Positions 178 to 30,279 of a stretch of DNA of 64,000 nucleotides are shown piece by piece. The DNA is from Candidatus Magasanikiibacteriota bacterium (GTDB taxonomy: Bacteria > Patescibacteriota > Patescibacteriia > Magasanikbacterales > UBA922): contig DMXO01000004.1 of the NCBI GenBank assembly GCA_003482855.1, positions 58,224 to 122,223 on the forward strand, read 5' to 3'. The position numbers and the translations under genes were made by a program. The first letter of the stretch is position 1. Each line of letters begins with the position of its first letter. A model generated the notes under the pieces. It saw only the letters and a list, made by a program, of their open reading frames with translations, ran no database searches and had not been told where the DNA came from.

Positions 178-1170
178 ATGCGCGAACCAACATATCGTGA
201 CGCTATAAAAGCAGGCTGGCAACTTGCGTGGCATCACAAATCTCTGTGGATCTTTGGTATGTTTGCTGCCTTCCTCGGGCAAATGGGGATTGTCGAATTA
301 CTATCGAAGATGACGTTTGGCGTGAGTTATTTTAGGGCACCATCATTTTTTGTATATGCATGGGATACGTTTTCACAGGCTGGGCTGTCTTCACTTTTGC
401 GTGCACTTGATTTGAGTGTAGACAAGTGGGTATGGCTTATTTGGCTTATTATTATTTTTATAGGATTTGGTATTTTTTTGGCATTTGTCGCCGTTGTATC
501 TCAAGGAGCTATTGTCCATAGTGCCACACGCTTCATAGAAAAGAATGGCAAAAAATTTGAGAGTACAAGTGTTTCTTGGGATCATAGTAGAAAACATTTT
601 TGGAAACTATTTGGCCTCAATGTGCTCAGAAAATGTGTTCTTGCTTTATTTATTTCATTTGTAGTATGGGGCACATTTAATGCACTAATAGAACCGAGTG
701 CAGGAGACATCGTATTATTTTTTGTATTGTTTCTCATGGCTGCTATGGTTGGCATGGTGTTATCATTTTTGTTGGTATATGCTGTTGGCTATGTGGTAGT
801 AGAGGAATTTTCTTTTATAAAAGCTATACGATCAGCATGGAGATTGTTTACGAGACATTGGTTTGTATCATTTGAAATAGGATTTATATTTATTATTCTC
901 AACATCGTGTTTGTTGTCATTATGCTTTTGGGCATGTATCTCTTGTTTTTACCAAGTCTTGCGCTTTTTGCCGCTGCGTTTCTCATACAGAGTACAGGAT
1001 TGTATACGGCAGGGATTATTTTGGGGTTTGTATTGTTTATTCCTTTTATTGTTGTCCTTGGTTCAGTATTTACCGTGTTTGGTACTGCGACATGGACATA
1101 TTTATTTACCAAGATGCATAGAGAGGGAATCATAAGCCATCTCGTACATTTATTTCACGGGGGAAAATAA
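178..1170 (+). CDS. Polytopic integral membrane protein, function unknown
   Basis: 330-aa ORF with many hydrophobic helix-length segments; no catalytic motif recognised; precedes pilB-like ATPase. Confidence 0.6.
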   Translation: MREPTYRDAIKAGWQLAWHHKSLWIFGMFAAFLGQMGIVELLSKMTFGVSYFRAPSFFVYAWDTFSQAGLSSLLRALDLSVDKWVWLIWLIIIFIGFGIFLAFVAVVSQGAIVHSATRFIEKNGKKFESTSVSWDHSRKHFWKLFGLNVLRKCVLALFISFVVWGTFNALIEPSAGDIVLFFVLFLMAAMVGMVLSFLLVYAVGYVVVEEFSFIKAIRSAWRLFTRHWFVSFEIGFIFIILNIVFVVIMLLGMYLLFLPSLALFAAAFLIQSTGLYTAGIILGFVLFIPFIVVLGSVFTVFGTATWTYLFTKMHREGIISHLVHLFHGGK

Positions 1171-1196: not shown

Positions 1197-2945
1197 ATGT
1201 CAGGATTTGGCAATTCAATTGATGATCTTCTCAAAGGGAATGCAGCTTCTTCAGGTGGTGGGCAACCGCAACAATTACACGTTTCAACACCTGAGACAGA
1301 GGAAAAATTTGGGAAAAAAATGAGCGAAATAAAAAAGAAAGAACTTGAAACAGAGGCCGAGCGTTTTGCTATGGAAGTAGGATACCCCCATATAGATCTC
1401 AAAAAATTTCCTGTGACGCACGAAGCTTTGAGACAGGTAAGCCGGGAAGTGGCGGAGCAGATTGGCGCTGTATGTTTTTATGCAGACGTAGATGAAATAC
1501 GCGTGGGAGCCCTTGATCCTACACACAAAGATGTCCAAGATCTTTTTATACAAATTAAACAAAAGCATCATGCTGAAGGAGTGGTGTATGTCATTTCTCA
1601 AGTAAGTTTTGATCGTGTTCTTGATCTTTACAAGACAATGCCAAATATCAAACCCATTACCAAAGATATTGAAGTCAAAGCAGAAGATCTCGAACGCGTG
1701 CAAGCAAATGTAAATGATTTTAGAAGTGTTCAGAAGCTCCTCATAGATGCAAATACATCTGATCTCATCACCGTGCTTCTTGGCGCCAGTCTAAAAGTAG
1801 ATTCTTCAGATATCCATGTGGAGGCAGAGGAGACGCGTATTGTGGTGCGTTTCCGTCTCGATGGTATTTTGCATGATGTTGCTGAGTTACCAAAGGAATT
1901 ATTCCAAAAGCTGTTGTCTCGTATCAAGCTCGTAGCATCTCTCAAAATAAATATTACTGATAAACCGCAGGATGGACGTTTCACTATAAAATTTCCTACG
2001 GGTGATGTCGATGTGCGTGTATCTACTATTCCGACTGTTTTTGGTGAGAGTATTGTGTTGCGTCTTTTGAAACAAGATCAAGAAGGAATCACGCTCGAAA
2101 AATTGGGTATGTCTTCACGAGATTATGAAGTCCTCAAACAAGAGATCACTCGGCCCAATGGCATGATTATAACAACTGGTCCTACAGGTAGTGGTAAGAC
2201 AACTACTTTGTATGCTATTTTGAAAATTCTTAATCAACCAGGCGTAAAGATAATTACTCTTGAAGATCCAGTTGAGTATCGTATGGAAGGTGTGAACCAA
2301 AGTCAGATTGATCATAGCAAAAATTATACTTTTGCCAAAGGGCTCCGCTCTATTCTCCGTCAAGATCCAGATATCGTGATGGTGGGAGAAATTCGAGATC
2401 TTGAAACAGCAGAAATAGCTATACAGGCAGCTTTGACTGGGCATCTCATGCTATCTACTATCCATACCAATAGTGGTGCTGGTGCTGTTCCTCGTTTTTT
2501 GTCTATGGGTGCAAAGCCTTTCTTGTTGGCTCCAGCGCTCAATTGTGTGATGGGACAACGTCTTGTGCGTCGTGTTTGTCAGGCATGTTCACAACAAGTA
2601 GAGGCGACACAATTGCCAATTGCAGTGCAAGAGCGATTGAAGATTCAGCTTGAAATGATGCCTGAGAAACAAAAGCAAGAATTGGTCAATAAACAACTAA
2701 CATTTCGTACAGCAAAAGGATGTGAAGCATGTAATAATATAGGTTACAAAGGACGCGTTGGTATTTATGAGATTTTTCAAGTACAAGAAAAGATAGAGCA
2801 ACAAATACTTTCGGGAGATATATCTGAGCATGTCATAGAAGATGTTGCACGTGCTCAAGGTATGACAACTATGTTGCAAGATGGTATACTAAAGGCGCTT
2901 GATGGTGTCACTACGCTCGATGAAGTGTTTAGAGTGATAGATTAA
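1197..2945 (+). CDS. pilB: Type IV pilus / type II secretion assembly ATPase (PilB/GspE family)
   Basis: Walker A GPTGSGKTT, Asp/His boxes and C-terminal CxxC...CxxC tetracysteine (CQAC...CEAC) typical of GspE/PilB; 582 aa. Confidence 0.85.
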   Translation: MSGFGNSIDDLLKGNAASSGGGQPQQLHVSTPETEEKFGKKMSEIKKKELETEAERFAMEVGYPHIDLKKFPVTHEALRQVSREVAEQIGAVCFYADVDEIRVGALDPTHKDVQDLFIQIKQKHHAEGVVYVISQVSFDRVLDLYKTMPNIKPITKDIEVKAEDLERVQANVNDFRSVQKLLIDANTSDLITVLLGASLKVDSSDIHVEAEETRIVVRFRLDGILHDVAELPKELFQKLLSRIKLVASLKINITDKPQDGRFTIKFPTGDVDVRVSTIPTVFGESIVLRLLKQDQEGITLEKLGMSSRDYEVLKQEITRPNGMIITTGPTGSGKTTTLYAILKILNQPGVKIITLEDPVEYRMEGVNQSQIDHSKNYTFAKGLRSILRQDPDIVMVGEIRDLETAEIAIQAALTGHLMLSTIHTNSGAGAVPRFLSMGAKPFLLAPALNCVMGQRLVRRVCQACSQQVEATQLPIAVQERLKIQLEMMPEKQKQELVNKQLTFRTAKGCEACNNIGYKGRVGIYEIFQVQEKIEQQILSGDISEHVIEDVARAQGMTTMLQDGILKALDGVTTLDEVFRVID

Positions 2946-2993: not shown

Positions 2994-4130
2994 ATGGTAA
3001 GTACTCGTTCAAATGGGACACAGCCGACTGGCCAACCCGTAAGATTTTATAAATTTGTTGCTCTTAGTTTTTTGGTTATTACTATAGTGTTGCTTGGTGT
3101 AGTCATATTCATGTCATCCAAGCGTGCTGACATCACCATAATCACACGTGCTGAACCTGTAGACGCGACAATGTCTGTAGATCTCGGGAGTACCAATGCA
3201 GTAGTATCTGGATTTGTCACGAGTACCTTTGTCGAGATGACCAAGAATTTTAGTCCAGAAGGGACAAAGACCGAAGAAGGCACAGCAGAAGGAGTGGTGA
3301 CGCTTTATAATGATACTGATGTCGCGCAACCGCTTGTTGCAACAACTCGACTTTTGACCTCAGATGGTGTTTTGTTTAGATTGAAGAGCGCAATCACTGT
3401 ACCTGCACAAGGTACAATACAGGCAAATGTATATGCAGATAAGGCTGGTACAGGTAGTGATATCGGACCTGCGAGTTTCACTTTGCCTGGTTTGCGAGAA
3501 GACAAACAGACATTGATATACGCAAAAAGTGAGATGACTATGAGTGGTGGCACCAGGAGTATAGGCGTGTTGAGCCAAGATGATGTATCAAAAGCAGAAA
3601 AAATATTGCTTGAAGAATTAAAGAAGAAAGCATCAGAAGATATGACAGCTCTGTATCCTGATAAGGGCGCCTTGTTTGAGGTTGCACAGTATGCATTTGA
3701 ACATGATGCAGAACTTGGTGTAGAGACGAGCCTTTTCAATCTGACAGGCAAGGCAACTGTGGTTGGCGTTTTTTATGACAAAGATAAAATTAATACCTAT
3801 GCTCAAGGTATATTGGAAAAGCAGGTAGTGAGCAATAGCGAGGTACTTCAATCTGTCCAAGATGCGCCCACAGCAGTCATAGCCAATTATGATATGGAGC
3901 GTGGGCAAGCCACATTGACGGTCACACATACAGGCTTCGTAGATATAGATCCCAATAGCAAAGAATTACAAAAGATAATGTTTTTTGGGAAAACAGAAGA
4001 TGAGGTACGTAGATACGTGATGTCACTCAATCATGTACAGGGCGTAGAAATGCATTTTAGACCATTGTGGAATAGGAGTGTTCCTCATGTGGCTAGTCAT
4101 GTAAATATTGTTGTGAGGCAGGTTGAATAG
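2994..4130 (+). CDS. Membrane-anchored hypothetical protein (N-terminal TM helix, large extracytoplasmic domain)
   Basis: 378-aa ORF; single N-terminal hydrophobic segment; directly downstream of pilB. Confidence 0.5.
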   Translation: MVSTRSNGTQPTGQPVRFYKFVALSFLVITIVLLGVVIFMSSKRADITIITRAEPVDATMSVDLGSTNAVVSGFVTSTFVEMTKNFSPEGTKTEEGTAEGVVTLYNDTDVAQPLVATTRLLTSDGVLFRLKSAITVPAQGTIQANVYADKAGTGSDIGPASFTLPGLREDKQTLIYAKSEMTMSGGTRSIGVLSQDDVSKAEKILLEELKKKASEDMTALYPDKGALFEVAQYAFEHDAELGVETSLFNLTGKATVVGVFYDKDKINTYAQGILEKQVVSNSEVLQSVQDAPTAVIANYDMERGQATLTVTHTGFVDIDPNSKELQKIMFFGKTEDEVRRYVMSLNHVQGVEMHFRPLWNRSVPHVASHVNIVVRQVE

Positions 4131-4417
4131 ATTTTAAGCACTTGAGCACTGTAGCACCAAAGCATGTGAGTAATTTGACATAAATTATCTTGTATTATAA
4201 GATGTACATATCAGCGATTGATGCGTCTACCAAACGCATGCCCACATAAGGTTTCTCTTGAACTAAGCTGATAGACATTTAATGAGTTAAACATCTGGGT
4301 GGAAACGTCCCCAAGGACCCCGGTGCATGATTTTGAACGATGAGTTTGAAGTTGTGCATCGGGGCTTTTGATTTAATTTAGAATTTTAAATTAAGAATTA
4401 AAAATTAATTTATTTAT
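4131..4417 (+). promoter_or_regulatory. Long structured leader of thrS; candidate T-box-like riboswitch with intrinsic terminator
   Basis: 287-nt non-coding leader; GGGTGGAAAC motif resembles T-box core (AGGGUGGNACCGCG); 10-bp stem CCCCGGTGCA/TGCATCGGGG (one G-U) followed by CTTTTGATTT just before thrS ATG. Confidence 0.4.
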
Positions 4418-6199
4418 ATGAAAGAAAATAATAACTTGGAAGCAATGCGCCATTCATGCGAACACGTGCTGACGATGGCCATGTTGCGTATATGGGGGAA
4501 CAAAATTGATGCGGCAATGGGTCCTGCGACGGATGATGGCTTTTATTTTGACTTTGATTCTGACATCAAAATAACTGAAGAGGATTTTTCTAGAGTTGAA
4601 AAGGAAATGGCAAACATTATCAAAGAAAATTTGCCTATTGTTAAAGATGAAATGACCGTATCAGAAGCGAGAGAATTTTTTAATAAAAATATATATAAAG
4701 GGAATGCATATAAACATGAATGGCTTGATGAAATTGAAGGACGCGGGGAAAAAGTGAGTGTGTATTGGATGGGTAAGAAAGATGGAGATATCCCCGATAC
4801 GTTTGTTGATATTTGTGCTGGTCCTCACCTGGAGTCGACGGGTAAAATTGGTGCATTTAAATTGCTAAAAACTGCCGGTGCATACTGGCATGGTGATGAA
4901 AAAAATAAAATGTTGACTAGAATTTATGGTACGGCGTTTGAAAATCAAGAAGAATTGGATAGTTACTTGAATATGCTTGAAGAGGCCAAGAAACGGGATC
5001 ACAAAAAATTAGGCAAAGAACTCGATCTATTTACTTTTTCTGATTTGGTGGGAGGAGGTTTACCTTTGTGGACGCCAAAAGGAACCCTGCTTCGAAATAC
5101 GTTGGATAATTTTGTATGGGAACTGCGCCAAGCTAAAGGTTACCAAAAAGTGACGATTCCACATATTACAAAAAAGGATTTGTACGAAACAAGCGGACAT
5201 TGGGCAAAGTTTTCAAATGACTTATTTAAAATTCAAACAAGAGAAGGTCATGAATTTGCGATGAAGCCCATGAATTGCCCGCATCATACGCAAATTTATG
5301 CACATGTTCCTCGCAGTTATCGCGATTTACCACAGCGTTATGCAGAGACAACCATGGTGTATAGAGATGAACAGACAGGCGAATTGAATGGACTGTCTCG
5401 GGTACGGTGTATTACTCAAGATGACGCCCATGTGTTTTGTCGTGAGTCACAATTGAAGGACGAATTCTATGCAATTTGGGATATTATCGAGACATTCTAT
5501 GCTGCGTGTGGTTTCCCTGCTCTAAAGATTCGGTTATCTTTGTCTGATCCCGAACATATGGAGAAATATATGGGAAGTAGAGAGCAGTGGGATAAAGCGG
5601 AAAGTCAATTGCGAGAGTTTATTTCTGATAGAGGAGCTGCATTTTTTGAGGCAAAAGGTGAGGCTGCTTTTTATGGCCCAAAAATTGACTTCATGGCAAA
5701 AGATTCCCTTGGTCGAGAATGGCAAGTCGCTACTATTCAGGCAGACAGAAGCATGCCAAAGAGTTTTGATTTATTTTGTAACAATGAACAGGGAGAACAA
5801 GAACGAATTGTGATGATACACGCAGCAATCATGGGTTCGATTGAACGCTTTTTGTCGATTTTGATTGAACATTATGGTGGGGCATTTCCTTTGTGGATCT
5901 CTCCGGTTCAAGTTCATTTTGCTCCGGTATCTGCAAAACATGTTGAAGGGACGAAAAAGTTAGCCGAAGAGTTTTCCCAGCTTGGTATTCGCATTGCAGT
6001 TGACGACGCAGATGAGACGGTCGGTAATAAAGTCCGTAAAGCTGTAGCACAAAAAGTTCCATACATTGTTGTCGTGGGCGACAAAGAAATTGCAGGAGAG
6101 GACTGGATGATACGCGTTCGTGGGGTTGAGAAACAAGAGAAGATGAGTAAGGACGAATTTGTGAAGAAAGTAATGGAAGAAATTAAAGAGAGAAAGTAG
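4418..6199 (+). CDS. thrS: Threonine--tRNA ligase
   Basis: 593 aa; class II aaRS motifs, MNCPHH zinc site, TGS/second-additional-domain and anticodon-binding C-terminus. Confidence 0.9.
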   Translation: MKENNNLEAMRHSCEHVLTMAMLRIWGNKIDAAMGPATDDGFYFDFDSDIKITEEDFSRVEKEMANIIKENLPIVKDEMTVSEAREFFNKNIYKGNAYKHEWLDEIEGRGEKVSVYWMGKKDGDIPDTFVDICAGPHLESTGKIGAFKLLKTAGAYWHGDEKNKMLTRIYGTAFENQEELDSYLNMLEEAKKRDHKKLGKELDLFTFSDLVGGGLPLWTPKGTLLRNTLDNFVWELRQAKGYQKVTIPHITKKDLYETSGHWAKFSNDLFKIQTREGHEFAMKPMNCPHHTQIYAHVPRSYRDLPQRYAETTMVYRDEQTGELNGLSRVRCITQDDAHVFCRESQLKDEFYAIWDIIETFYAACGFPALKIRLSLSDPEHMEKYMGSREQWDKAESQLREFISDRGAAFFEAKGEAAFYGPKIDFMAKDSLGREWQVATIQADRSMPKSFDLFCNNEQGEQERIVMIHAAIMGSIERFLSILIEHYGGAFPLWISPVQVHFAPVSAKHVEGTKKLAEEFSQLGIRIAVDDADETVGNKVRKAVAQKVPYIVVVGDKEIAGEDWMIRVRGVEKQEKMSKDEFVKKVMEEIKERK

Positions 6200-10410: not shown

Positions 10411-11364
10411 TTAACCACGTTGAATAAGATACATTGTATATATAATATATAATGTGACAAATGTAATGCCTTGCCAACGGTCTACTTTATTTCTTCTGCC
10501 AATAAACATAAATACAAAGAGTAATACGGTCGCTCCAACGCCTACCAAGACATCAATATTTGCTGTAGGATTGAAAGGTAATTGGAGCATGGTGCCTGTA
10601 AGACCAAGTATCCAAAATACATTGAATATATTTGACCCAACGATATTACCGACAGCAATGTCATCGTGATGATGCATTGCGGCGATGATAGATGTAGCTA
10701 GCTCAGGTAGTGATGTACCTACGGCAACTATGGTAAGACCGATAAGCGCTTCAGACATTCCGGCAATTCGTGCAAGTATAATAGCGTTGTCAACCAGCAA
10801 TTTTCCTCCAAGGAATAAACACACAAGCCCGCCGACGGTCATGATAATTGATAATCTCCATGAGTATGTGGTGATGTGTTCAGGCTTTCCTTCTGCTTTT
10901 GATAAGGCAAAAATATAAAACATGAAAATGATAAATATGGCAATAAGAGAAAAACCATCTGTTCTTGTAATGGCGCTGTGGGAGACACCGTCAAATAGCA
11001 TGTCATTTCCCATGGTATAGACAAGCACTATAGCCAGAATTGCAAATGGAATTTCTTTCCACACTGTGTTTCCTTTCACATTGAGTGGGTATATGATAGA
11101 TGCAATACCGAGTATGAGGAGTATATTTGCTATATTGCTTCCAACAATATTGCCGATGGCTATGTCAGCAGAACCTTTTACTGCTGATATGATATTTACA
11201 ATAAGCTCTGGGGCGGATGTACCAAAGGCGACCACAGTAAGACCTATGACAATAGAAGATATGCCCCATTTTTTTGCCATGGATGCTGAACCGCGAACCA
11301 AAATTTCTGCCCCGAAAATCAGTACGCCGAGGCCTAAGATAAGAAATATAATTGCCAGAGTCAT
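10411..11364 (-). CDS. Ca2+/Na+ antiporter (CaCA / YrbG family)
   Basis: Two alpha-repeat motifs GTSAPEL and GTSLPEL, about 10 TM segments; start chosen at MTLAIIF (ATG 11364). Confidence 0.8.
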
Positions 11365-11425
11365 AAGAAAATTTAAAAATAAAACACGCGTAGTATAGCG
11401 TGTTTTTGGTTTGAAATCAAGCAAT

Positions 11426-21916: not shown

Positions 21917-22423
21917 TTATTTTTGAATGTAGTTGAGAATTATTTTTTTTCTTGGATCTTCCATTTTTTCCAATACTTTTTGTATAATATCTTCTCTGAA
22001 TTTTTCTTTGGTTTGTTTGGGGTTTTTGTTTTTCGTATAAATAAATTCTACATTGAATATCAAATCTAGTTCTTCTTCTATCTTTTTTTGTGTTTTAGCT
22101 TTTTGAAGCAAAAATTCTATAAAGCAGTTTTTGTATTGTTCTAGTGTTTTACAATTTAAGAAATTTTGTGGACCAAAAAGTACTTTGTCTTCATTGCTTG
22201 CTTTGTAGAGTCCAGCAGAAAAATTGTTTTTCTTTCGTTCATCTTTTACCAGATTATAAAGAGGACAGTTTGGACAATCATTGTTACATTTTCTCACATC
22301 ATCTGTGTCAAATATAAATCTAAATCCGCGCCAATCGTCTATAATAATATTAATAAAATTGTTATATTCTTTTGAAAATTTATTGAATTTATTTTGTGCA
22401 ATCGTAAGGATTTTTTTGTTCAT
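21917..22423 (-). CDS. Hypothetical AT-rich 169-aa protein with CNNDCPNCP cysteine motif, directly downstream of the rSAM-SPASM gene
   Basis: ATG at 22423 (MNKKILTIAQ...); the ORF-track extension into the GC-rich region is spurious read-through of the open frame. Confidence 0.55.
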   Translation of the reverse strand: MNKKILTIAQNKFNKFSKEYNNFINIIIDDWRGFRFIFDTDDVRKCNNDCPNCPLYNLVKDERKKNNFSAGLYKASNEDKVLFGPQNFLNCKTLEQYKNCFIEFLLQKAKTQKKIEEELDLIFNVEFIYTKNKNPKQTKEKFREDIIQKVLEKMEDPRKKIILNYIQK

Positions 22424-22440
22424 ATATTTATGGTTGGAAT

Positions 22441-22475
22441 GGTAGTCGGGTACGCGAGGTGCGTACCCGACTACC
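22441..22475. terminator. Perfect 15-bp stem hairpin GGTAGTCGGGTACGC-gaggt-GCGTACCCGACTACC just 3' of the rSAM gene
   Basis: Read directly; no strong U-run follows, so possibly an attenuating or processing hairpin rather than a full terminator. Confidence 0.5.
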
Positions 22476-22478
22476 TGC

Positions 22479-23576
22479 TTAATCCTCCTTGAGGTGGGGT
22501 AGCGGGCACAGGGTGTATCCGCCACAGGGGTCACCCATACCCTCGACCGTCGCGCGGCAACCACCGCGGCACTTGTCCCAGCGGTCGCACGAGCCACATG
22601 GCTCGCCGACGGTCTCCTGGGTCAGGGCGAGGCGCGAGCAGATCAGGTCGGACTCGTACGCCGCCCGGATGGGGTCTGGGTCGTCGACGTGACCGAGCGG
22701 GACCGTGGAGTTCGAGCACGCACGGATGCTTCCGTCGACTGCGAAGTATAGCCCCTTGTCGTAGAAGGGACATGAGCCGAACAGGTGGGGCATGAGTACT
22801 GCGGCTCGTGGGTTTTTGAATTCCGGCCAGAGGCCGTCGTCCATGGCCGAGGCGGAGGACTGCATGTAGTCGCGTCCCTGGTGCTCGAGCGTGCGGATCA
22901 AATCCGCAAGCTCCTCGGGCGTCGGCGCGACCTCGAAGTACTCCGGTCCGACCGGCTCGCCCGAGCCCATGAGCTCGAGATCCACACCGATTCCCCTCAT
23001 CCTGCAGAACCGGATGTAGTCGGGCACGAGCGCGATGTTGTCTTTGCGGATCAGATTCTGGAGCCGGAACAGCGGATCGCGATATCCGACCCCGCAGAAC
23101 ACGTCGATCGCCGTGCGCATCTTGCGCGCCATGTCGACGGTCGATCCAATCATCTGTACCTGGAGGCGTATTTGGTCGGGGTCGTTCGAGTCGGCGATGT
23201 TCCACTTGCCGGTGATGTGCACGCGGCGCTCGTAGAGCCAGGCGGCGAGTTCGGGCGTGATCGAGATCATGTTGGTGAACACCCACGGTTTGATGCCACG
23301 GGAGATGAGGATCTCGATGTATTCCTTGAGGTGGGGCCACAGGAGTGGCTCTCCGCCGAGGATGTCCATGGTCTCGAGCTCAGCGCCACGGTATTCGCGA
23401 CAGAGGTCGAGAATCCGAACCGCCTGGTTGAGTGTCATTGATCCGTTGCCCAGCTTGTCACGGCGCACCATATAGCAACCAGGGCATCGGAGTTGACAGC
23501 GCGAGGTCACTTCGATGATGCCGTAGCGTAGGCCGGCCCCGGTCTTCTCTTCGTAGCGCTTGCTGATGTCAGTCAT
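22479..23576 (-). CDS. Radical SAM enzyme with C-terminal SPASM/twitch domain (peptide/protein-modifying rSAM maturase-like), GC-rich
   Basis: CxxxCxxC (CQLRCPGC) near N-terminus; C-terminal CGSCDRWDKCRGGC Cys cluster; start at MTDISKRYEE (ATG 23576) overlapping the stop of the upstream 119-aa gene. Confidence 0.8.
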   Translation of the reverse strand: MTDISKRYEEKTGAGLRYGIIEVTSRCQLRCPGCYMVRRDKLGNGSMTLNQAVRILDLCREYRGAELETMDILGGEPLLWPHLKEYIEILISRGIKPWVFTNMISITPELAAWLYERRVHITGKWNIADSNDPDQIRLQVQMIGSTVDMARKMRTAIDVFCGVGYRDPLFRLQNLIRKDNIALVPDYIRFCRMRGIGVDLELMGSGEPVGPEYFEVAPTPEELADLIRTLEHQGRDYMQSSASAMDDGLWPEFKNPRAAVLMPHLFGSCPFYDKGLYFAVDGSIRACSNSTVPLGHVDDPDPIRAAYESDLICSRLALTQETVGEPCGSCDRWDKCRGGCRATVEGMGDPCGGYTLCPLPHLKED

Positions 23577-23928
23577 GTCGTTCTCCTTGGTTTTGGCACC
23601 ATGCTTCCATTTCGTGCATGATGCGATTCCATTCCTCTTCGTTTCCTGAGCGGTGGATGTACTGGTAGTTGGGAGTATCTTCGACAATTTCTATTTTTTT
23701 CCGTATGTTCTCCCTTCTTTCTCGAGGTCGTTTGTCGTCCACAGAAGGCCAACATCGGTTGAACCATGTAGCGAATACCACTTCGCCGTCCTGTTTGAGG
23801 ACAACGATGTCGTCGCCGTGTCCATAAAAGAGTACATTGACCTCAGTGGTCGGATCCTCTTTGATCAGACTAGCTACGGTTTGCCATGTCTTATTCAAGC
23901 TTGGCAGATCCCAGATGCTTTTCTTCAT
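23569..23928 (-). CDS. Hypothetical 119-aa protein, translationally coupled to the rSAM-SPASM gene
   Basis: SD AAGAGG 6 nt upstream of ATG 23928 (MKKSIWDL...); stop overlaps rSAM start (ATGACTGA); intermediate GC. Confidence 0.55.
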   Translation of the reverse strand: MKKSIWDLPSLNKTWQTVASLIKEDPTTEVNVLFYGHGDDIVVLKQDGEVVFATWFNRCWPSVDDKRPRERRENIRKKIEIVEDTPNYQYIHRSGNEEEWNRIMHEMEAWCQNQGERHD

Positions 23929-23958
23929 GTCGTACCTCTTGGGTTGTGAAATGAACAA

Positions 23959-24240
23959 GAATGGCCGCAGCTTTCTAAGCTATTGCCGTGCGGCACTTGT
24001 AGGTTCTGCCCCTGCAACTCGTTGGTTCACTACCACGTGTGATATCTTTTCACCAAAGTACCTTTTGTAAATAAAAAATCGCCTTTCAGCGATTGGACGA
24101 CCTCAAAGTAAACTAACCCATTGGCTGTTTACCCGAGGCCTTTTGTGTGATGTAAATTATTTAAAAATATATAGTTCATAGTGTTATAATGTATTAACAC
24201 ATTAATACATATTTTATCTTATGTCAAATAAAGACTGTGG
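23959..24240 (-). promoter_or_regulatory. Promoter (TTGACA ... TAATGT) plus ~290-nt structured leader with intrinsic terminator (ATCGC-tgaaag-GCGAT-TTTTTT); candidate attenuator/riboswitch
   Basis: Read on - strand: -35/-10 near 24215-24185, leader hairpin CCUCGGGUAAAC/GUUUACUUUGAGG, then terminator hairpin + U6 at about 24075-24098, then 140 nt to the ATG. Confidence 0.4.
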
Positions 24241-28380: not shown

Positions 28381-30279
28381 ATGTTTAGAAAAACAATATT
28401 AATTTTGGGAACTGTATTTGTTGGAGCCGGTTTTTTATTATCCACGAATTCAGTTTATGCTGCACCGGACTATGCAAAGATTAAAGATGAAGGTTTCCAC
28501 GCACAGTATATAAGCCAGTCTGTGTCTGATCCTGTAGCTGTTGAAGCCGGGGAGACCATTTCAGTCGTATTTCGATTCAAAAATATAGGTACAAAGACTT
28601 GGGATAGTAATAGCACGCATTTTGTCTCAGCATATACTATGAATCCACGATATCGCACTTCAGATTTTCGTGCAGACAACTGGCTTGATTATCGTCAGAC
28701 CGCAAAAATTCCTGGTGTTGTCCGCCCAGGAGAGGTGGGAGAGCTTACTGTTCAATTCAAGGCTCCAGAGAAAGTAGGTACATACAAAGAAGAATTTTGG
28801 CTTGCGTCAGATGGGTGGTCGTGGGTAAAGGGTGGTTATTTTTTTGCTGAGATTAATGTAATTGCCAAACAAGAGGTCGGCACTGCACCAGATGTAGTTG
28901 AACAGCCTACCCAGATAGAAAATTCAGAAGAGATACAGACCAATTCTCTATATCAAGCAAAGAAGATAATGCAAAGCAAAAAAGAAATTTCTGCGGCTGG
29001 TGGTGAACGTGTCAAACTCGTAATTGGCTATCAAAATGTCGGAGCACAAGTATGGGATACTTATGCATTTGTCGTATCTGATGAGACGTCTCTAGCTGCT
29101 TCAGGAGATATTGTTAGTTTTGTAGATGAAAGTTGGAAAGATAATATAACGATAATACAAGTAGACGAGCCAGTGCCCCAGTGGGAGGCTGCACGTGGTA
29201 AATTTTATGTAAAAATGCCTTCTCAAAAAGGGTCATATACACTTACACTTGTGCTTCAAGTGGCAGGTGAAAAATTAGAAGATACGGTATTGCATATCCC
29301 CGTGAATGTAACAGATAGCGCGCCTTCTTATTTTTCTAATTCACAAACATCTGAATCAGTAGATAGACCTCGTCTTGAACAAGAACCAACTATTCGTGTT
29401 GGTGTATGGCGTGAACCAGAACAGGGTGTAGAATTTATATCTCATGACGATACATATATTGTATATGCAGGTACTGAACGCAAAGGTACTCTACCTCCTG
29501 GTATGCGTGCGAGTATGTTTTTTGGAGGAGGTACGTATCATTTTCAAAGTGACGGTCTCAATTTCATGTCTACACAATATATTCGATTGGAACCAGAATA
29601 CAATAAACATGCGGTGTTTACGCTACCTAATTATGAGAGGAAAGTTTCGTGGAAAGGACCTCAAAATTTCAATGCATATCGTGGTGTCGCAGAATATCGT
29701 CGCACACAGGATGACGCCATTATGTATCTTATCAATGAATTACCATTTGAAGACTACGTGGCTGGTATTGCCGAGACATCAAATGCTTCACCTATAGAAT
29801 ATATAAAAGCGCTTCTAACTGCTGCGCGGACGTATGCTTATTATGTACAACAGACAACCAAACATGATGCGCGCAATTTTGATGTCGTTGCACACACTGG
29901 TGACCAACTATATTTGGGATATGAAAGTGAAAAACTTATGCCGCGTGTAAAAGAAGCCCAAGAAGCCACAAGAGGCTACATGATAACGTATGATACAGAC
30001 AAAAATTTTGATACACAAAATGATATTGTTATCACGCCATATTATGCCAATAGCGATGGTCGAACTAGAAGTTGGACAGAAGTATGGGGTGGTAGTGCAA
30101 AACCATGGCTTGTATCAGTACCTGCTAAGTATGATGCGCGTGATGGCAAAAGTATGTACGGACATGGCGTAGGTATGAGTGCACGTGATGCCGCATATAA
30201 GGCAGAAGAAGAAAAAATAGATTATCAAACAATTTTGAAATATTATTATACAGGGGTTGGGGTAGAACGAATATACTAA
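28381..30279 (+). CDS. SpoIID/LytB-domain protein with long N-terminal Ig-like extension (secreted)
   Basis: Signal peptide MFRKTILILGTVFVGAGFLLSTNSVYA; C-terminal SpoIID/LytB amidase-enhancer domain (...ARDAAYKAEEE...YYYTGVGVERIY). Confidence 0.7.
   Translation: MFRKTILILGTVFVGAGFLLSTNSVYAAPDYAKIKDEGFHAQYISQSVSDPVAVEAGETISVVFRFKNIGTKTWDSNSTHFVSAYTMNPRYRTSDFRADNWLDYRQTAKIPGVVRPGEVGELTVQFKAPEKVGTYKEEFWLASDGWSWVKGGYFFAEINVIAKQEVGTAPDVVEQPTQIENSEEIQTNSLYQAKKIMQSKKEISAAGGERVKLVIGYQNVGAQVWDTYAFVVSDETSLAASGDIVSFVDESWKDNITIIQVDEPVPQWEAARGKFYVKMPSQKGSYTLTLVLQVAGEKLEDTVLHIPVNVTDSAPSYFSNSQTSESVDRPRLEQEPTIRVGVWREPEQGVEFISHDDTYIVYAGTERKGTLPPGMRASMFFGGGTYHFQSDGLNFMSTQYIRLEPEYNKHAVFTLPNYERKVSWKGPQNFNAYRGVAEYRRTQDDAIMYLINELPFEDYVAGIAETSNASPIEYIKALLTAARTYAYYVQQTTKHDARNFDVVAHTGDQLYLGYESEKLMPRVKEAQEATRGYMITYDTDKNFDTQNDIVITPYYANSDGRTRSWTEVWGGSAKPWLVSVPAKYDARDGKSMYGHGVGMSARDAAYKAEEEKIDYQTILKYYYTGVGVERIY

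What the first reader, a model, noticed from the sequence alone, without database searches (positions are those of the whole stretch)
4131..4417. Unusually long structured leader before thrS with T-box-like core and terminator
Intergenic spacing is normally tens of bp here, but thrS has a 287-nt leader containing GGGTGGAAAC (T-box-like), several hairpins and a 10-bp terminator stem followed by a U-run abutting the start codon. thrS is a classic T-box-regulated gene in Firmicutes. A T-box in this lineage would be noteworthy.
Basis: partly seen in the sequence, partly recalled or inferred. Interest (0 to 1): 0.5.

Follow-up and report, generated by a model that had tools for sequence, protein, structure and literature searches.

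The report
Minimal threonine T-box riboswitch before thrS
The long spacer in front of the threonyl-tRNA synthetase gene of this ultrasmall (Candidate Phyla Radiation) bacterium is a stripped-down T-box riboswitch, an RNA that most likely reads uncharged threonine tRNA to decide whether transcription continues. Its build is unusual enough that the standard database model misses it.

Summary

**What is there**
- A σ70-type promoter (4175-4203) is followed by a 114-nt module (4210-4323).
- The 5' part is a four-way junction (P1-P4). Its 6-bp hairpin P2 shows the Thr codon ACC plus A in a 7-nt terminal loop, CUACCAA.
- The 3' part is a T-box antiterminator: helix A1, 7-nt bulge UGGAAAC, helix A2.
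- The 3' strand of A1 is also the start of a 21-bp terminator (4318-4364, -30 kcal/mol) followed by a U-tract. thrS starts at 4418.

**Evidence**
- Rfam's T-box model does not hit the window even at E≤10. It hits relatives only below threshold (26-53 bits; cut-off 93).
- A covariance model built from 20 relatives, without the window, finds exactly 4210-4323 (81 bits, E≈1e-15).
- At least 110 related leaders share the architecture, and those with enough downstream sequence are nearly all followed by thrS.
- All six helices covary.

**What is missing compared with canonical T-boxes**
- No tRNA-elbow platform, no recognisable K-turn and no Stem II S-turn or pseudoknot.
- In the window, also no Stem III and no G•U sensor pair.

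**Not tested**
- tRNA binding and charge sensing are inferred.
- The predicted U73 discriminator of tRNA-Thr could not be checked.

I found no report of T-boxes in this lineage. I classify it as a new variant of a known kind.

The parts
4175..4180 (+). -35 promoter hexamer TTGACA
   Evidence: 10 of 12 match with 17-nt spacer. 71 of 94 related leaders have a σ70-type promoter, most ending 4-8 nt before P1.
4198..4203 (+). -10 promoter hexamer TAAGAT. The inferred transcription start is about 4208-4211.
   Evidence: The same TTGACA-17-TAAGAT occurs in L001, L004 and L041.
4210..4215 (+). P1 5' strand (AUCAGC). It pairs with 4267-4272 and closes the four-way junction.
   Evidence: Model R1 alignment. 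All six pairs show compensatory changes. Between the window and L001, A-U becomes G-C.
4216..4220 (+). Junction strand GAUUG, nearly invariant, in the position of the Stem I K-turn
   Evidence: GATTG in 89 of 94 and AATTG in 5 of 94. ATTG was fixed by the search pattern, but it is also present in relatives found through ThrRS homology.
4221..4239 (+). P2 hairpin, an ultrashort Stem I: 6-bp stem (4221-4226/4234-4239) and 7-nt loop CUACCAA (4227-4233)
   Evidence: 97% of cells paired, with up to 6 pair types per position.
4229..4232 (+). Specifier: Thr codon ACC (4229-4231) plus the following purine A4232
   Evidence: Read from the sequence. ACC-A is present in the leader variants I read among thrS loci found by ThrRS homology. 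L024 and L026 carry the synonymous ACU.
4240..4252 (+). P3, a short hairpin (GCC/GGU), weak in the window
   Evidence: Model R1 alignment. 90.5% paired and 3 of 3 pairs compensatory in the family. The single-sequence MFE predicts it only partly.
4253..4262 (+). P4, a short hairpin (UUC/GAA), weak in the window
   Evidence: 81.7% paired and 4 of 4 pairs compensatory in the family.
4263..4266 (+). Junction strand CUAA, conserved
   Evidence: CTAA in 81 of 94, otherwise TTAA, CCAA or TCAA. It was not part of the search pattern, but a [CT][TCA]AA ending was one of the filters used to select these 94.
4267..4272 (+). P1 3' strand (GCUGAU)
4273..4294 (+). Linker with the purine motif GAG (4284-4286) followed by UU and AAA. 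No Stem III.
   Evidence: Relatives read GAGUG-[Stem III]-AA. 48 of 94 family members, including the window, lack the hairpin.
4295..4299 (+). Antiterminator helix A1, 5' strand (CUGGG); pairs with 4319-4323
   Evidence: 97.6% paired.
4300..4306 (+). T-box bulge UGGAAAC. UGGA is predicted to pair with the tRNA 3' end UCCA. The usual ACC is AAC here.
   Evidence: UGGAACC in 92 of 94 relatives; UGGAAAC only in the window and L001. All 150 leader-context T-box cores in the held loci have N = A; the 4 other regex matches are not discriminators.
4307..4318 (+). Antiterminator helix A2 (GUCC/GGAC) with loop CCAA. The closing pair is G4307-C4318, not G•U.
   Evidence: Across the family the closing pair is G-C in 45 and G•U in 37.
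4319..4323 (+). A1 3' strand (CCCGG), shared with the terminator 5' arm
4318..4364 (+). Intrinsic terminator hairpin: 21 pairs, loop GAUGA, -30.1 kcal/mol
   Evidence: 84 of 89 relatives have a terminator whose 5' arm includes the A1 3' strand. The arms differ between the window and L001 but still pair.
4365..4374 (+). U-rich tract CUUUUGAUUU
4418..6199 (+). thrS, the regulated gene: short-form ThrRS, 593 aa
   Evidence: Pfam. 90% identical to the Ca. Magasanikiibacteriota protein in L001.

Best explanation
The leader is a transcription-attenuating T-box riboswitch specific for tRNA-Thr, in a reduced architecture.

**Proposed mechanism**
1. Transcription starts at about 4210 from the promoter at 4175-4203.
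2. The first 63 nt fold into a four-way junction (P1-P4).
3. Hairpin P2 presents the Thr codon ACC plus a purine in a 7-nt loop, CUACCAA. The loop has the layout of an anticodon loop (Y-U-NNN-A-A).
4. This loop is proposed to pair with the GGU anticodon of tRNA-Thr as a loop-loop contact.
5. If the bound tRNA is uncharged, its 3' end (predicted U73-C-C-A) pairs with UGGA of the bulge 4300-4306. That stabilises the weak antiterminator (A1/A2, -9.4 kcal/mol), and RNA polymerase reads into thrS.
6. Otherwise 4318-4323 is captured by the much stronger terminator (4318-4364, -30.1 kcal/mol) and transcription stops at the U-tract.

**Shown**
- The sequence elements, the mutually exclusive pairings and their energies.
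- Conservation and covariation of all helices.
- The link to thrS and the remote homology to T-boxes.

**Inferred**
- tRNA binding, discrimination of charged from uncharged tRNA, the transcription start and the loop-loop geometry.
For: - **Lineage and gene.** ThrRS is directly downstream. The host is CPR / Ca. Magasanikbacteria.
- **Competing structures.** The antiterminator with the 7-nt bulge UGGAAAC and the overlapping terminator are both possible, at -9.4 and -30.1 kcal/mol.
- **Specifier.** ACC-A sits in the loop of a strongly covarying 6-bp hairpin.
- **Independent model.** R1, built from 20 relatives without the window or L001, gives a single full-length hit at 4210-4323: 81.4 bits, E = 1.3e-15.
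- **Link to Rfam T-box.** Relatives of the same architecture hit RF00230 at 26.6-52.8 bits, with E down to 1e-8.
- **Relatives found through ThrRS homology only.** About 30 of 80 loci carry the UGGAACC core upstream of thrS. Nine of them have the full type-A module.
- **Metagenomes.** A pattern scan returned at least 119 loci. 97 of them have thrS right downstream, and most of the rest are cut short.
- **Covariation.** On 84 distinct sequences, 91.8% of cells pair, against at most 48.5% when partners are slid. There are 655 double-change cells against 194 in shuffles, and all six helices are supported.
- **Terminators.** 84 of 89 relatives keep a terminator that overlaps the A1 3' strand.
- **Promoters.** 71 of 94 have a σ70 promoter, most ending 4-8 nt before P1.
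- **Specifier variation.** The only change seen is synonymous, ACC to ACU in L024 and L026.
- **Bulge.** Every leader-context T-box core found in 1.4 Mb of held loci is UGGA (150; the other 4 regex matches are not discriminators), as expected for one tRNA species.
- **Closest species.** Between the window and L001 there are compensatory changes in P1 and in the terminator arms.
Against: - Rfam RF00230 does not hit the window even at E≤10. No relative reaches the gathering score of 93 bits.
- Several modules described as required for T-box function in PMC7583486 are absent or not recognisable:
  - no distal Stem I platform for the tRNA elbow, which is said to be essential in transcriptional T-boxes;
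  - no canonical K-turn;
  - no Stem II S-turn or IIA/B pseudoknot;
  - no Stem III in the window;
  - G-C instead of the G•U charge-sensor pair;
  - bulge AAC instead of ACC.
- P3 and P4 are only 3 bp each in the window.
- No tRNA-Thr gene is in any sequence I hold, so the UGGA/U73 match is untested.
- No leader of this architecture with a different codon was found. The specifier role therefore rests on identity with the regulated gene, not on codon and gene covarying.
- The metagenomic set was collected with a pattern taken from the window, so conservation of ATTG, CTACCA and GGGTGGAAMCG in that set is circular.
Confidence: 0.85

Rival explanations
1. It is a decayed T-box. The element descends from a T-box but no longer senses aminoacylation. 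It acts as a constitutive partial terminator, or responds only to the amount of tRNA-Thr.
For: - In the window, Stem III is missing, the G•U sensor pair is G-C, the bulge reads AAC rather than ACC, and P3 and P4 are minimal.
- Stem III and G•U are described as the two parts of the steric sieve against charged tRNA (PMC7583486).
Against: - The Stem III-less form occurs in 48 of 94 leaders from many lineages, and the G-C form in 45 of 82. Both keep intact covarying helices and terminators.
- The window and L001 differ by compensatory changes.
- The leader is identical in three independent assemblies.
- This pattern indicates purifying selection on the switch.
Confidence: 0.08
2. ThrRS regulates its own gene. 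ThrRS binds the P2 hairpin as a mimic of a tRNA anticodon arm, as in the E. coli thrS operator, and thereby controls expression.
For: - The P2 loop CUACCAA has the general layout of an anticodon loop: pyrimidine, U, three bases, A, A.
- thrS is regulated in this way in E. coli (established knowledge).
Against: - The three central bases are the codon ACC, not a Thr anticodon (GGU, UGU or CGU).
- The hairpin lies 190 nt from the start codon, not at the ribosome-binding site.
- This idea does not explain the conserved UGGAACC discriminator or the terminator that overlaps it.
Confidence: 0.02
3. The parts are unrelated: the hairpin with its U-tract simply terminates the upstream gene (2994..4130), next to a separate thrS promoter, and there is no riboswitch.
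For: The hairpin is a very good intrinsic terminator.
Against: - The promoter-like site lies upstream of the hairpin, not downstream of it.
- The promoter, P1-P4, discriminator and terminator keep the same order and overlap in about 90 leaders.
- In relatives the same module precedes GNAT-thrS operons.
Confidence: 0.02

Closest known systems
Canonical transcriptional (class I) T-box leaders, Rfam RF00230, for example B. subtilis thrS, tyrS and glyQS
   Same: - The gene class regulated is an aminoacyl-tRNA synthetase.
- The specifier codon matches the gene's amino acid and is followed by a purine.
- The T-box sequence has a 7-nt bulge that starts UGGN and lies between helices A1 and A2.
- The A1 3' strand is shared with an intrinsic terminator followed by a U-tract.
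- A purine motif (GAG) lies 5' of the discriminator.
- Relatives give significant but sub-threshold RF00230 hits.
   Different: - The specifier is in a terminal 7-nt loop of a 6-bp hairpin inside a four-way junction, not on the 3' side of an internal loop of a long Stem I.
- There is no AG bulge or distal loop to dock the tRNA elbow.
- No canonical GA-motif K-turn is seen; conserved GAUUG and CUAA strands take its place.
- There is no Stem II, S-turn or IIA/B pseudoknot.
- Stem III is absent in the window and in about half of the family.
- The A2 closing pair is G-C and the bulge is AAC in the window.
- The window scores nothing against RF00230.
Actinobacterial ileS T-boxes with 'ultrashort' Stem I (translational, class II: M. 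tuberculosis, N. farcinica)
   Same: - Stem I is cut down so that there is no elbow-docking platform (PMC7583486).
   Different: - Those T-boxes regulate translation by sequestering the ribosome-binding site. This one has a terminator and U-tract 43 nt before the ATG.
- Those depend on a K-turn, a Stem II S-turn and a IIA/B pseudoknot to hold the anticodon. Here two short variable hairpins (P3, P4) sit inside a closing helix P1, with no S-turn or F-box sequence recognisable.
- The review states that the elbow platform is dispensable in translational T-boxes but essential in transcriptional ones. This family does not fit that rule.
glyQS T-box (lacks the Stem II domain)
   Same: It is compact and transcriptional, with Stem I joined to the discriminator by a single-stranded linker.
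   Different: glyQS keeps the long Stem I with the elbow platform, the K-turn, Stem III and the G•U pair.
E. coli thrS translational operator (tRNA-Thr anticodon-arm mimic bound by ThrRS)
   Same: It regulates the same gene and uses a hairpin whose loop looks like an anticodon loop.
   Different: It is bound by a protein, shows the anticodon rather than the codon, and acts at the ribosome-binding site. It has no T-box sequence and no terminator switch.

Membership tests
T-box leader (RF00230) | Score at or above the Rfam gathering threshold (93 bits) | tested here: not met
   The window gives no hit at gathering score or at E≤10. Relatives score 26.6-52.8 bits, with E from 1e-8 to 0.056.
T-box leader (RF00230) | T-box sequence forming helices A1 and A2 around a 7-nt bulge whose first four bases are UGGN | tested here: met
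   A1 is 4295-4299/4319-4323, the bulge is UGGAAAC (4300-4306) and A2 is 4307-4310/4315-4318. In the family A1 is 97.6% paired and A2 96% paired. The last three bulge bases are AAC in the window and ACC in 92 of 94 relatives.
T-box leader (RF00230) | Antiterminator and terminator (or sequestrator) are mutually exclusive because they share a strand | tested here: met
   Positions 4318-4323 belong to both. Energies are -9.4 and -30.1 kcal/mol. 84 of 89 relatives show the same overlap.
T-box leader (RF00230) | Specifier codon for the amino acid of the regulated gene, followed by a purine, shown in Stem I | tested here: met
   ACC-A at 4229-4232 upstream of thrS. ACC or ACU is present in the variant leaders read among thrS loci found through ThrRS homology. 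It sits in a terminal loop, which is atypical for class I.
T-box leader (RF00230) | The N of UGGN pairs with the discriminator base (N73) of the cognate tRNA | not testable with these tools
   No tRNA-Thr gene is in the window or in any held locus. The prediction is U73.
T-box leader (RF00230) | K-turn (GA motif) at the base of Stem I | tested here: inconclusive
   No tandem G•A / A•G arrangement can be drawn. Conserved GAUUG (4216-4220) and CUAA (4263-4266) occupy that position. Variant leaders (types B and D) do have GA on the 3' strand.
T-box leader (RF00230) | Distal Stem I platform (AG bulge plus distal loop) that docks the tRNA elbow | tested here: not met
   The hairpin that carries the specifier is 6 bp with a 7-nt loop, and the whole decoding module is 63 nt.
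T-box leader (RF00230) | [quoted passage not shown] | tested here: not met
   Between P2 and the P1 3' strand there are only two short hairpins of variable sequence. No S-turn or F-box motif is conserved. I did not search for tertiary pairings.
T-box leader (RF00230) | Stem III flanked by purines (5'-RRRxG-Stem III-AA-3') | tested here: not met
   The window has GAGUU-AAA with no hairpin (4284-4291). 46 of 94 relatives have GAGUG-hairpin-AA and 48 of 94 have no hairpin.
T-box leader (RF00230) | G•U wobble pair closing helix A2 (steric sensor of the aminoacyl group) | tested here: not met
   The pair is G4307-C4318. In the family it is G-C in 45 and G•U in 37.
CPR thrS 'type A' leader family (defined here, model R1) | P1 / GAUUG / P2 with loop CUACCAA / P3 / P4 / CUAA / P1', a linker, a UGGAAMC discriminator, a terminator, and thrS downstream | tested here: met
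   R1, built without the window, gives 81.4 bits and E = 1.3e-15 over the full model length. A leave-out HMM gives E = 2.8e-12, which is partly circular because the pattern came from the window.

The most novel reading that the evidence does not exclude
This may be a previously undescribed class of T-box, widespread in Candidate Phyla Radiation bacteria. It would switch transcription in response to tRNA-Thr using only about 115 nt:
- a codon shown in an anticodon-loop-like hairpin within a four-way junction, giving a loop-loop contact with the tRNA anticodon;
- a bare A1/bulge/A2 discriminator;
- no elbow platform, no Stem II S-turn, often no Stem III and often no G•U sensor.

Those missing modules are currently held to be essential for transcriptional T-boxes. 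If it still distinguishes charged from uncharged tRNA, it must do so by another means.
Probability: 0.45. Interest if true: 0.75.

Novelty: new variant of a known kind. Interest (0 to 1): 0.6.

Why it matters
- **Gene regulation in CPR.** Regulation in CPR/Patescibacteria is largely unexplored (PMC11665869). This would be a defined cis-regulatory RNA in that group, tying ThrRS supply to the charging of tRNA-Thr in organisms thought to obtain their amino acids from a host.
- **T-box mechanism.** The family is a natural minimal design, with at least 90 covarying examples. It lacks modules reported as indispensable (elbow platform, Stem III, G•U sensor). That makes the question of the minimal tRNA-sensing switch directly testable.
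- **Annotation.** The curated Rfam threshold misses this whole clade, so T-boxes are probably undercounted outside Firmicutes and Actinobacteria.
- **Tools.** A short tRNA-responsive switch native to Patescibacteria could help build expression tools for them.

Tried and rejected
- **Rfam.** I scanned the whole window at gathering score and the leader at E≤10. There was no T-box hit, only noise from snoRNA, U6 and RyhB models.
- **Other GGGTGGNA sites.** The copies at 30087, 31638 and 35137 all lie inside long ORFs, and the count equals chance.
- **Second nhmmer hit.** The hit at 11288-11315 (E = 0.32) lies inside the ORF 10411..11424 on the minus strand, which the contig look-up labels Na_Ca_ex. 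I treat it as chance.
- **Other aminoacyl-tRNA synthetase or amino-acid genes with similar leaders in the window.** None of the 21 larger ORFs scanned with Pfam is such a gene, and model R1 gave a single hit.
- **The same architecture with another codon.** Among 1.4 Mb of held loci there were none: 101 had ACC, and one chance AAA hairpin had no T-box.
- **tRNA-Thr, to test U73.** There is none in the window, in the 199 loci, or in the 10-kb extensions of the source contig.
- **Leader-peptide attenuation.** The only short ORF (ATG at 4202, 15 codons, 2 Thr) starts inside the -10 hexamer, so I rejected it (read).
- **RNAalifold on the MAFFT alignment.** It recovered only P2 and part of the bulge region, because the variable hairpins were misaligned. 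I solved this with anchored parsing and alignment to a covariance model.
- **False positives of the pattern scan.** L093, L101, L102, L113, L118, L137, L150 and L186 have no P2 pairing, and those with enough downstream sequence have no thrS. Model R1 did not hit them.
- **Literature.** No paper in the library combines T-box with CPR or Patescibacteria.

Full report
**1. Observation**

The window position is as described.
- ORF 2994..4130 ends with TAG at 4128-4130, and thrS starts with ATG at 4418. The spacer is 287 nt, whereas neighbouring genes are 26, 48 and 65 nt apart.
- The downstream protein is a threonyl-tRNA synthetase: Pfam tRNA_SAD, tRNA-synt_2b and HGTP_anticodon.
- GGGTGGAAAC is at 4297-4306.
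- The leader folds much better than shuffled versions, with z = -4.4.
- The terminator scan finds a hairpin at 4318-4364 followed by CUUUUGAUUU.

Two details of the finding are wrong. The stem has about 21 pairs, not 10. The U-tract ends 43 nt before the ATG, so it does not abut it.

**2. Lineage**

- The closest ThrRS relatives are MAGs of Ca. Magasanikbacteria/Magasanikiibacteriota and other Patescibacteria (L001 is 90% identical).
- The first ORF of the window (178..1170) is encoded on NCBI GCA_001783195.1 (MFQX01000004.1) and on a 358-kb ENA contig. The leader in those assemblies is identical to the window's.

**3. The Rfam test fails, but the element is still a T-box**

- RF00230 gives nothing in the window at gathering score or at E≤10 on 3900-4700.
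- Read by hand, the 3' half is a textbook antiterminator:
  - CUGGG (4295-4299) pairs with CCCGG (4319-4323);
  - these enclose a 7-nt bulge UGGAAAC (4300-4306) and a hairpin GUCC-CCAA-GGAC (4307-4318).
- Positions 4318-4323 are also the first bases of the terminator. The antiterminator is worth -9.4 kcal/mol and the terminator -30.1 kcal/mol. The default state is therefore termination, as in T-boxes.
- The 5' half contains a hairpin AUGCGU-CUACCAA-ACGCAU (4221-4239). Its loop carries the Thr codon ACC followed by A.

**4. Relatives found through the protein alone**

- Among 80 loci retrieved through ThrRS similarity only, about 30 carry GGGUGGAACC upstream of thrS.
- They fall into several decoding-module designs:
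  - the window's 'type A' in L001-L004, L008, L016, L041, L048 and L069;
  - a form with ACC in an internal loop (GGUACCAC);
  - hairpins with 9-nt loops (CUCACCAA and similar);
  - a minimal hairpin in L024 and L026 whose loop AUACUAA carries ACU.
- Every leader I read has a Thr codon plus a purine, and all have UGGA.
- None reaches Rfam's gathering score. Type-A leaders with a Stem III do give significant sub-threshold RF00230 hits: 35.1 bits, E = 4e-4 for L041, and 52.8 bits, E = 1e-8 for L117. The threshold is 93 bits.

**5. A large family**

- 97 of them have thrS immediately downstream. Most of the others are truncated, and about eight are chance matches with no hairpin.
- The ThrRS proteins are 40-77% identical to the window's. 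Most complete ones align from at or near their first residues, so they too are the short form.
- This set is biased at the pattern positions, and I do not count their conservation as evidence. The stems between the pattern positions are free to vary.

**6. Architecture and covariation**

- Anchored parsing of 94 distinct leaders gives this order: P1 (6 bp), GAUUG, P2 (6 bp, loop CUACCAA), P3, P4, CUAA, P1', a linker with or without Stem III, A1, UGGAACC, A2, A1', then the terminator.
- On a 20-sequence MAFFT alignment that excludes the window and L001, my structure has 91.5% of cells paired, against at most 54% when partners are slid. 21 of 28 pairs show compensatory changes.
- The covariance model R1 built from that alignment finds exactly one hit in the 64-kb window: 4210-4323, full length, 81.4 bits, E = 1.3e-15.
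- After aligning 91 hits to the model:
  - 91.8% of cells are paired, against at most 48.5% in slid controls;
  - there are 655 double-change cells, against 194 ± 15 in shuffles;
  - each of the six helices is supported: P1 85%, P2 97%, P3 90%, P4 82%, A1 98%, A2 96%.
- That alignment is fitted to the model, which favours the structure. The MAFFT-based count and the anchored count agree with it.
- 84 of 89 leaders have a terminator that uses the A1 3' strand.
- 71 of 94 have a σ70-type promoter, most ending 4-8 nt before P1. The RNA therefore begins at P1.
- The window and the next species (L001) differ by an A-U to G-C change in P1. Their terminator arms are largely different but still pair.

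**7. Mechanism**

The best explanation is tRNA-Thr-dependent transcription antitermination.
- ACC in the P2 loop pairs with the GGU anticodon.
- UGGA in the bulge pairs with the uncharged 3' end, predicted to be UCCA.
- This holds A1/A2 together against the terminator.

The loop CUACCAA has the same layout as an anticodon loop: pyrimidine, U, triplet, A, A. I therefore propose a loop-loop contact like that between tRNAs with complementary anticodons. That is inference. So are tRNA binding, charge discrimination and the transcription start site.

**8. Differences from known T-boxes**

The features below are those listed in PMC7583486 and PMC11297988.
- The specifier is in a terminal loop inside a four-way junction.
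- There is no distal Stem I platform.
- No canonical K-turn can be drawn.
- There is no Stem II S-turn or IIA/B pseudoknot.
- Stem III is absent in the window and in 48 of 94 relatives, although the 5' purine motif GAG remains.
- The A2 closing pair is G-C in the window and in about half of the family, instead of the G•U 'steric sensor'.
- The window and L001 have AAC instead of ACC in the bulge.

The review states that the elbow platform is essential in transcriptional T-boxes and that Stem III is indispensable. This terminator-type family has neither, yet it is conserved. The nearest precedent is the actinobacterial ileS 'ultrashort Stem I' class. That class acts on translation and relies on a K-turn, a Stem II S-turn and a pseudoknot.

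**9. Rivals**

- **A decayed T-box that no longer senses charging.** This is possible for the window alone. It is disfavoured by the breadth and covariation of the Stem III-less, G-C forms.
- **ThrRS autoregulation through an anticodon-arm mimic.** The loop shows the codon, not the anticodon.
- **An ordinary terminator next to a promoter.** The order of the parts is wrong for this, and the overlap is conserved.

**10. Novelty and limits**

- Full-text searches found no paper that links T-boxes with CPR or Patescibacteria.
- TBDB was assembled from published T-box collections, including Rfam 14.0, RibEX and GeConT3, plus a class II model run on Actinobacteria only. This family scores far below Rfam's current RF00230 threshold.
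- I cannot exclude that individual examples are listed somewhere. I rate the element as a new variant of a known kind.
- The main untested points are the tRNA-Thr discriminator base, any example of the scaffold with another codon, and all of the biochemistry.

Noticed in passing
L003 1809-2357 and 2362-2913; L002 1800-2345 and 2350-2895; L008 2419-2973; L018 2370-2903; L028 1865-2413; L031 1923-2471: In several relatives the same T-box leader is followed by one or two genes of about 180 aa before thrS. The two L003 ORFs are GNAT acetyltransferases (Pfam Acetyltransf_3); the others are of similar size but were not scanned. The riboswitch there would control a GNAT-thrS operon. The window and L001 lack these genes. 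In L020 a 573-aa ORF sits between the T-box and thrS.
   Followed up: partly
L017, L022, L023, L030, L032, L036, L037, L038, L051 (type B); L065, L076, L080 (type C); L024, L026 (type D): Other CPR thrS leaders share the UGGAACC discriminator but have different decoding modules. Type B has ACC in an internal loop (GGUACCAC) of a short Stem I. Type C has 9-nt terminal loops. Type D is a roughly 45-nt hairpin with GA on the 3' strand and loop AUACUAA, which carries the synonymous Thr codon ACU. Together they look like an evolutionary series of Stem I reduction.
   Followed up: partly
window 4227-4233: The specifier loop CUACCAA has the layout of a tRNA anticodon loop: pyrimidine-32, U33, triplet, A37, A38. 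This suggests an anticodon-anticodon-like kissing contact with tRNA-Thr.
   Followed up: no
window 22001-24000: GC content jumps to 0.51 against about 0.38 elsewhere. The region holds a radical-SAM ORF (22479..23687, minus strand) and may have been acquired horizontally.
   Followed up: partly
window 4418-6199 and related loci: This ThrRS is a short form of 593 aa. It starts at the editing (tRNA_SAD) region, and Pfam detects no N-terminal TGS domain. The relatives that carry the T-box share this form.
   Followed up: no
window 2994-4130 and 178-1170: The 378-aa protein directly upstream of the leader is conserved in synteny (L002, L003, L200-L202) but has no Pfam match. ORF 178..1170 also has no match. 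They flank a PilB-like T2SSE ATPase (1197..2945).
   Followed up: no
L201 (GCA_001783195.1, MFQX01000004.1): In the gene calls on this public record, thrS is called as a truncated 445-aa product that starts well inside the gene.
   Followed up: no
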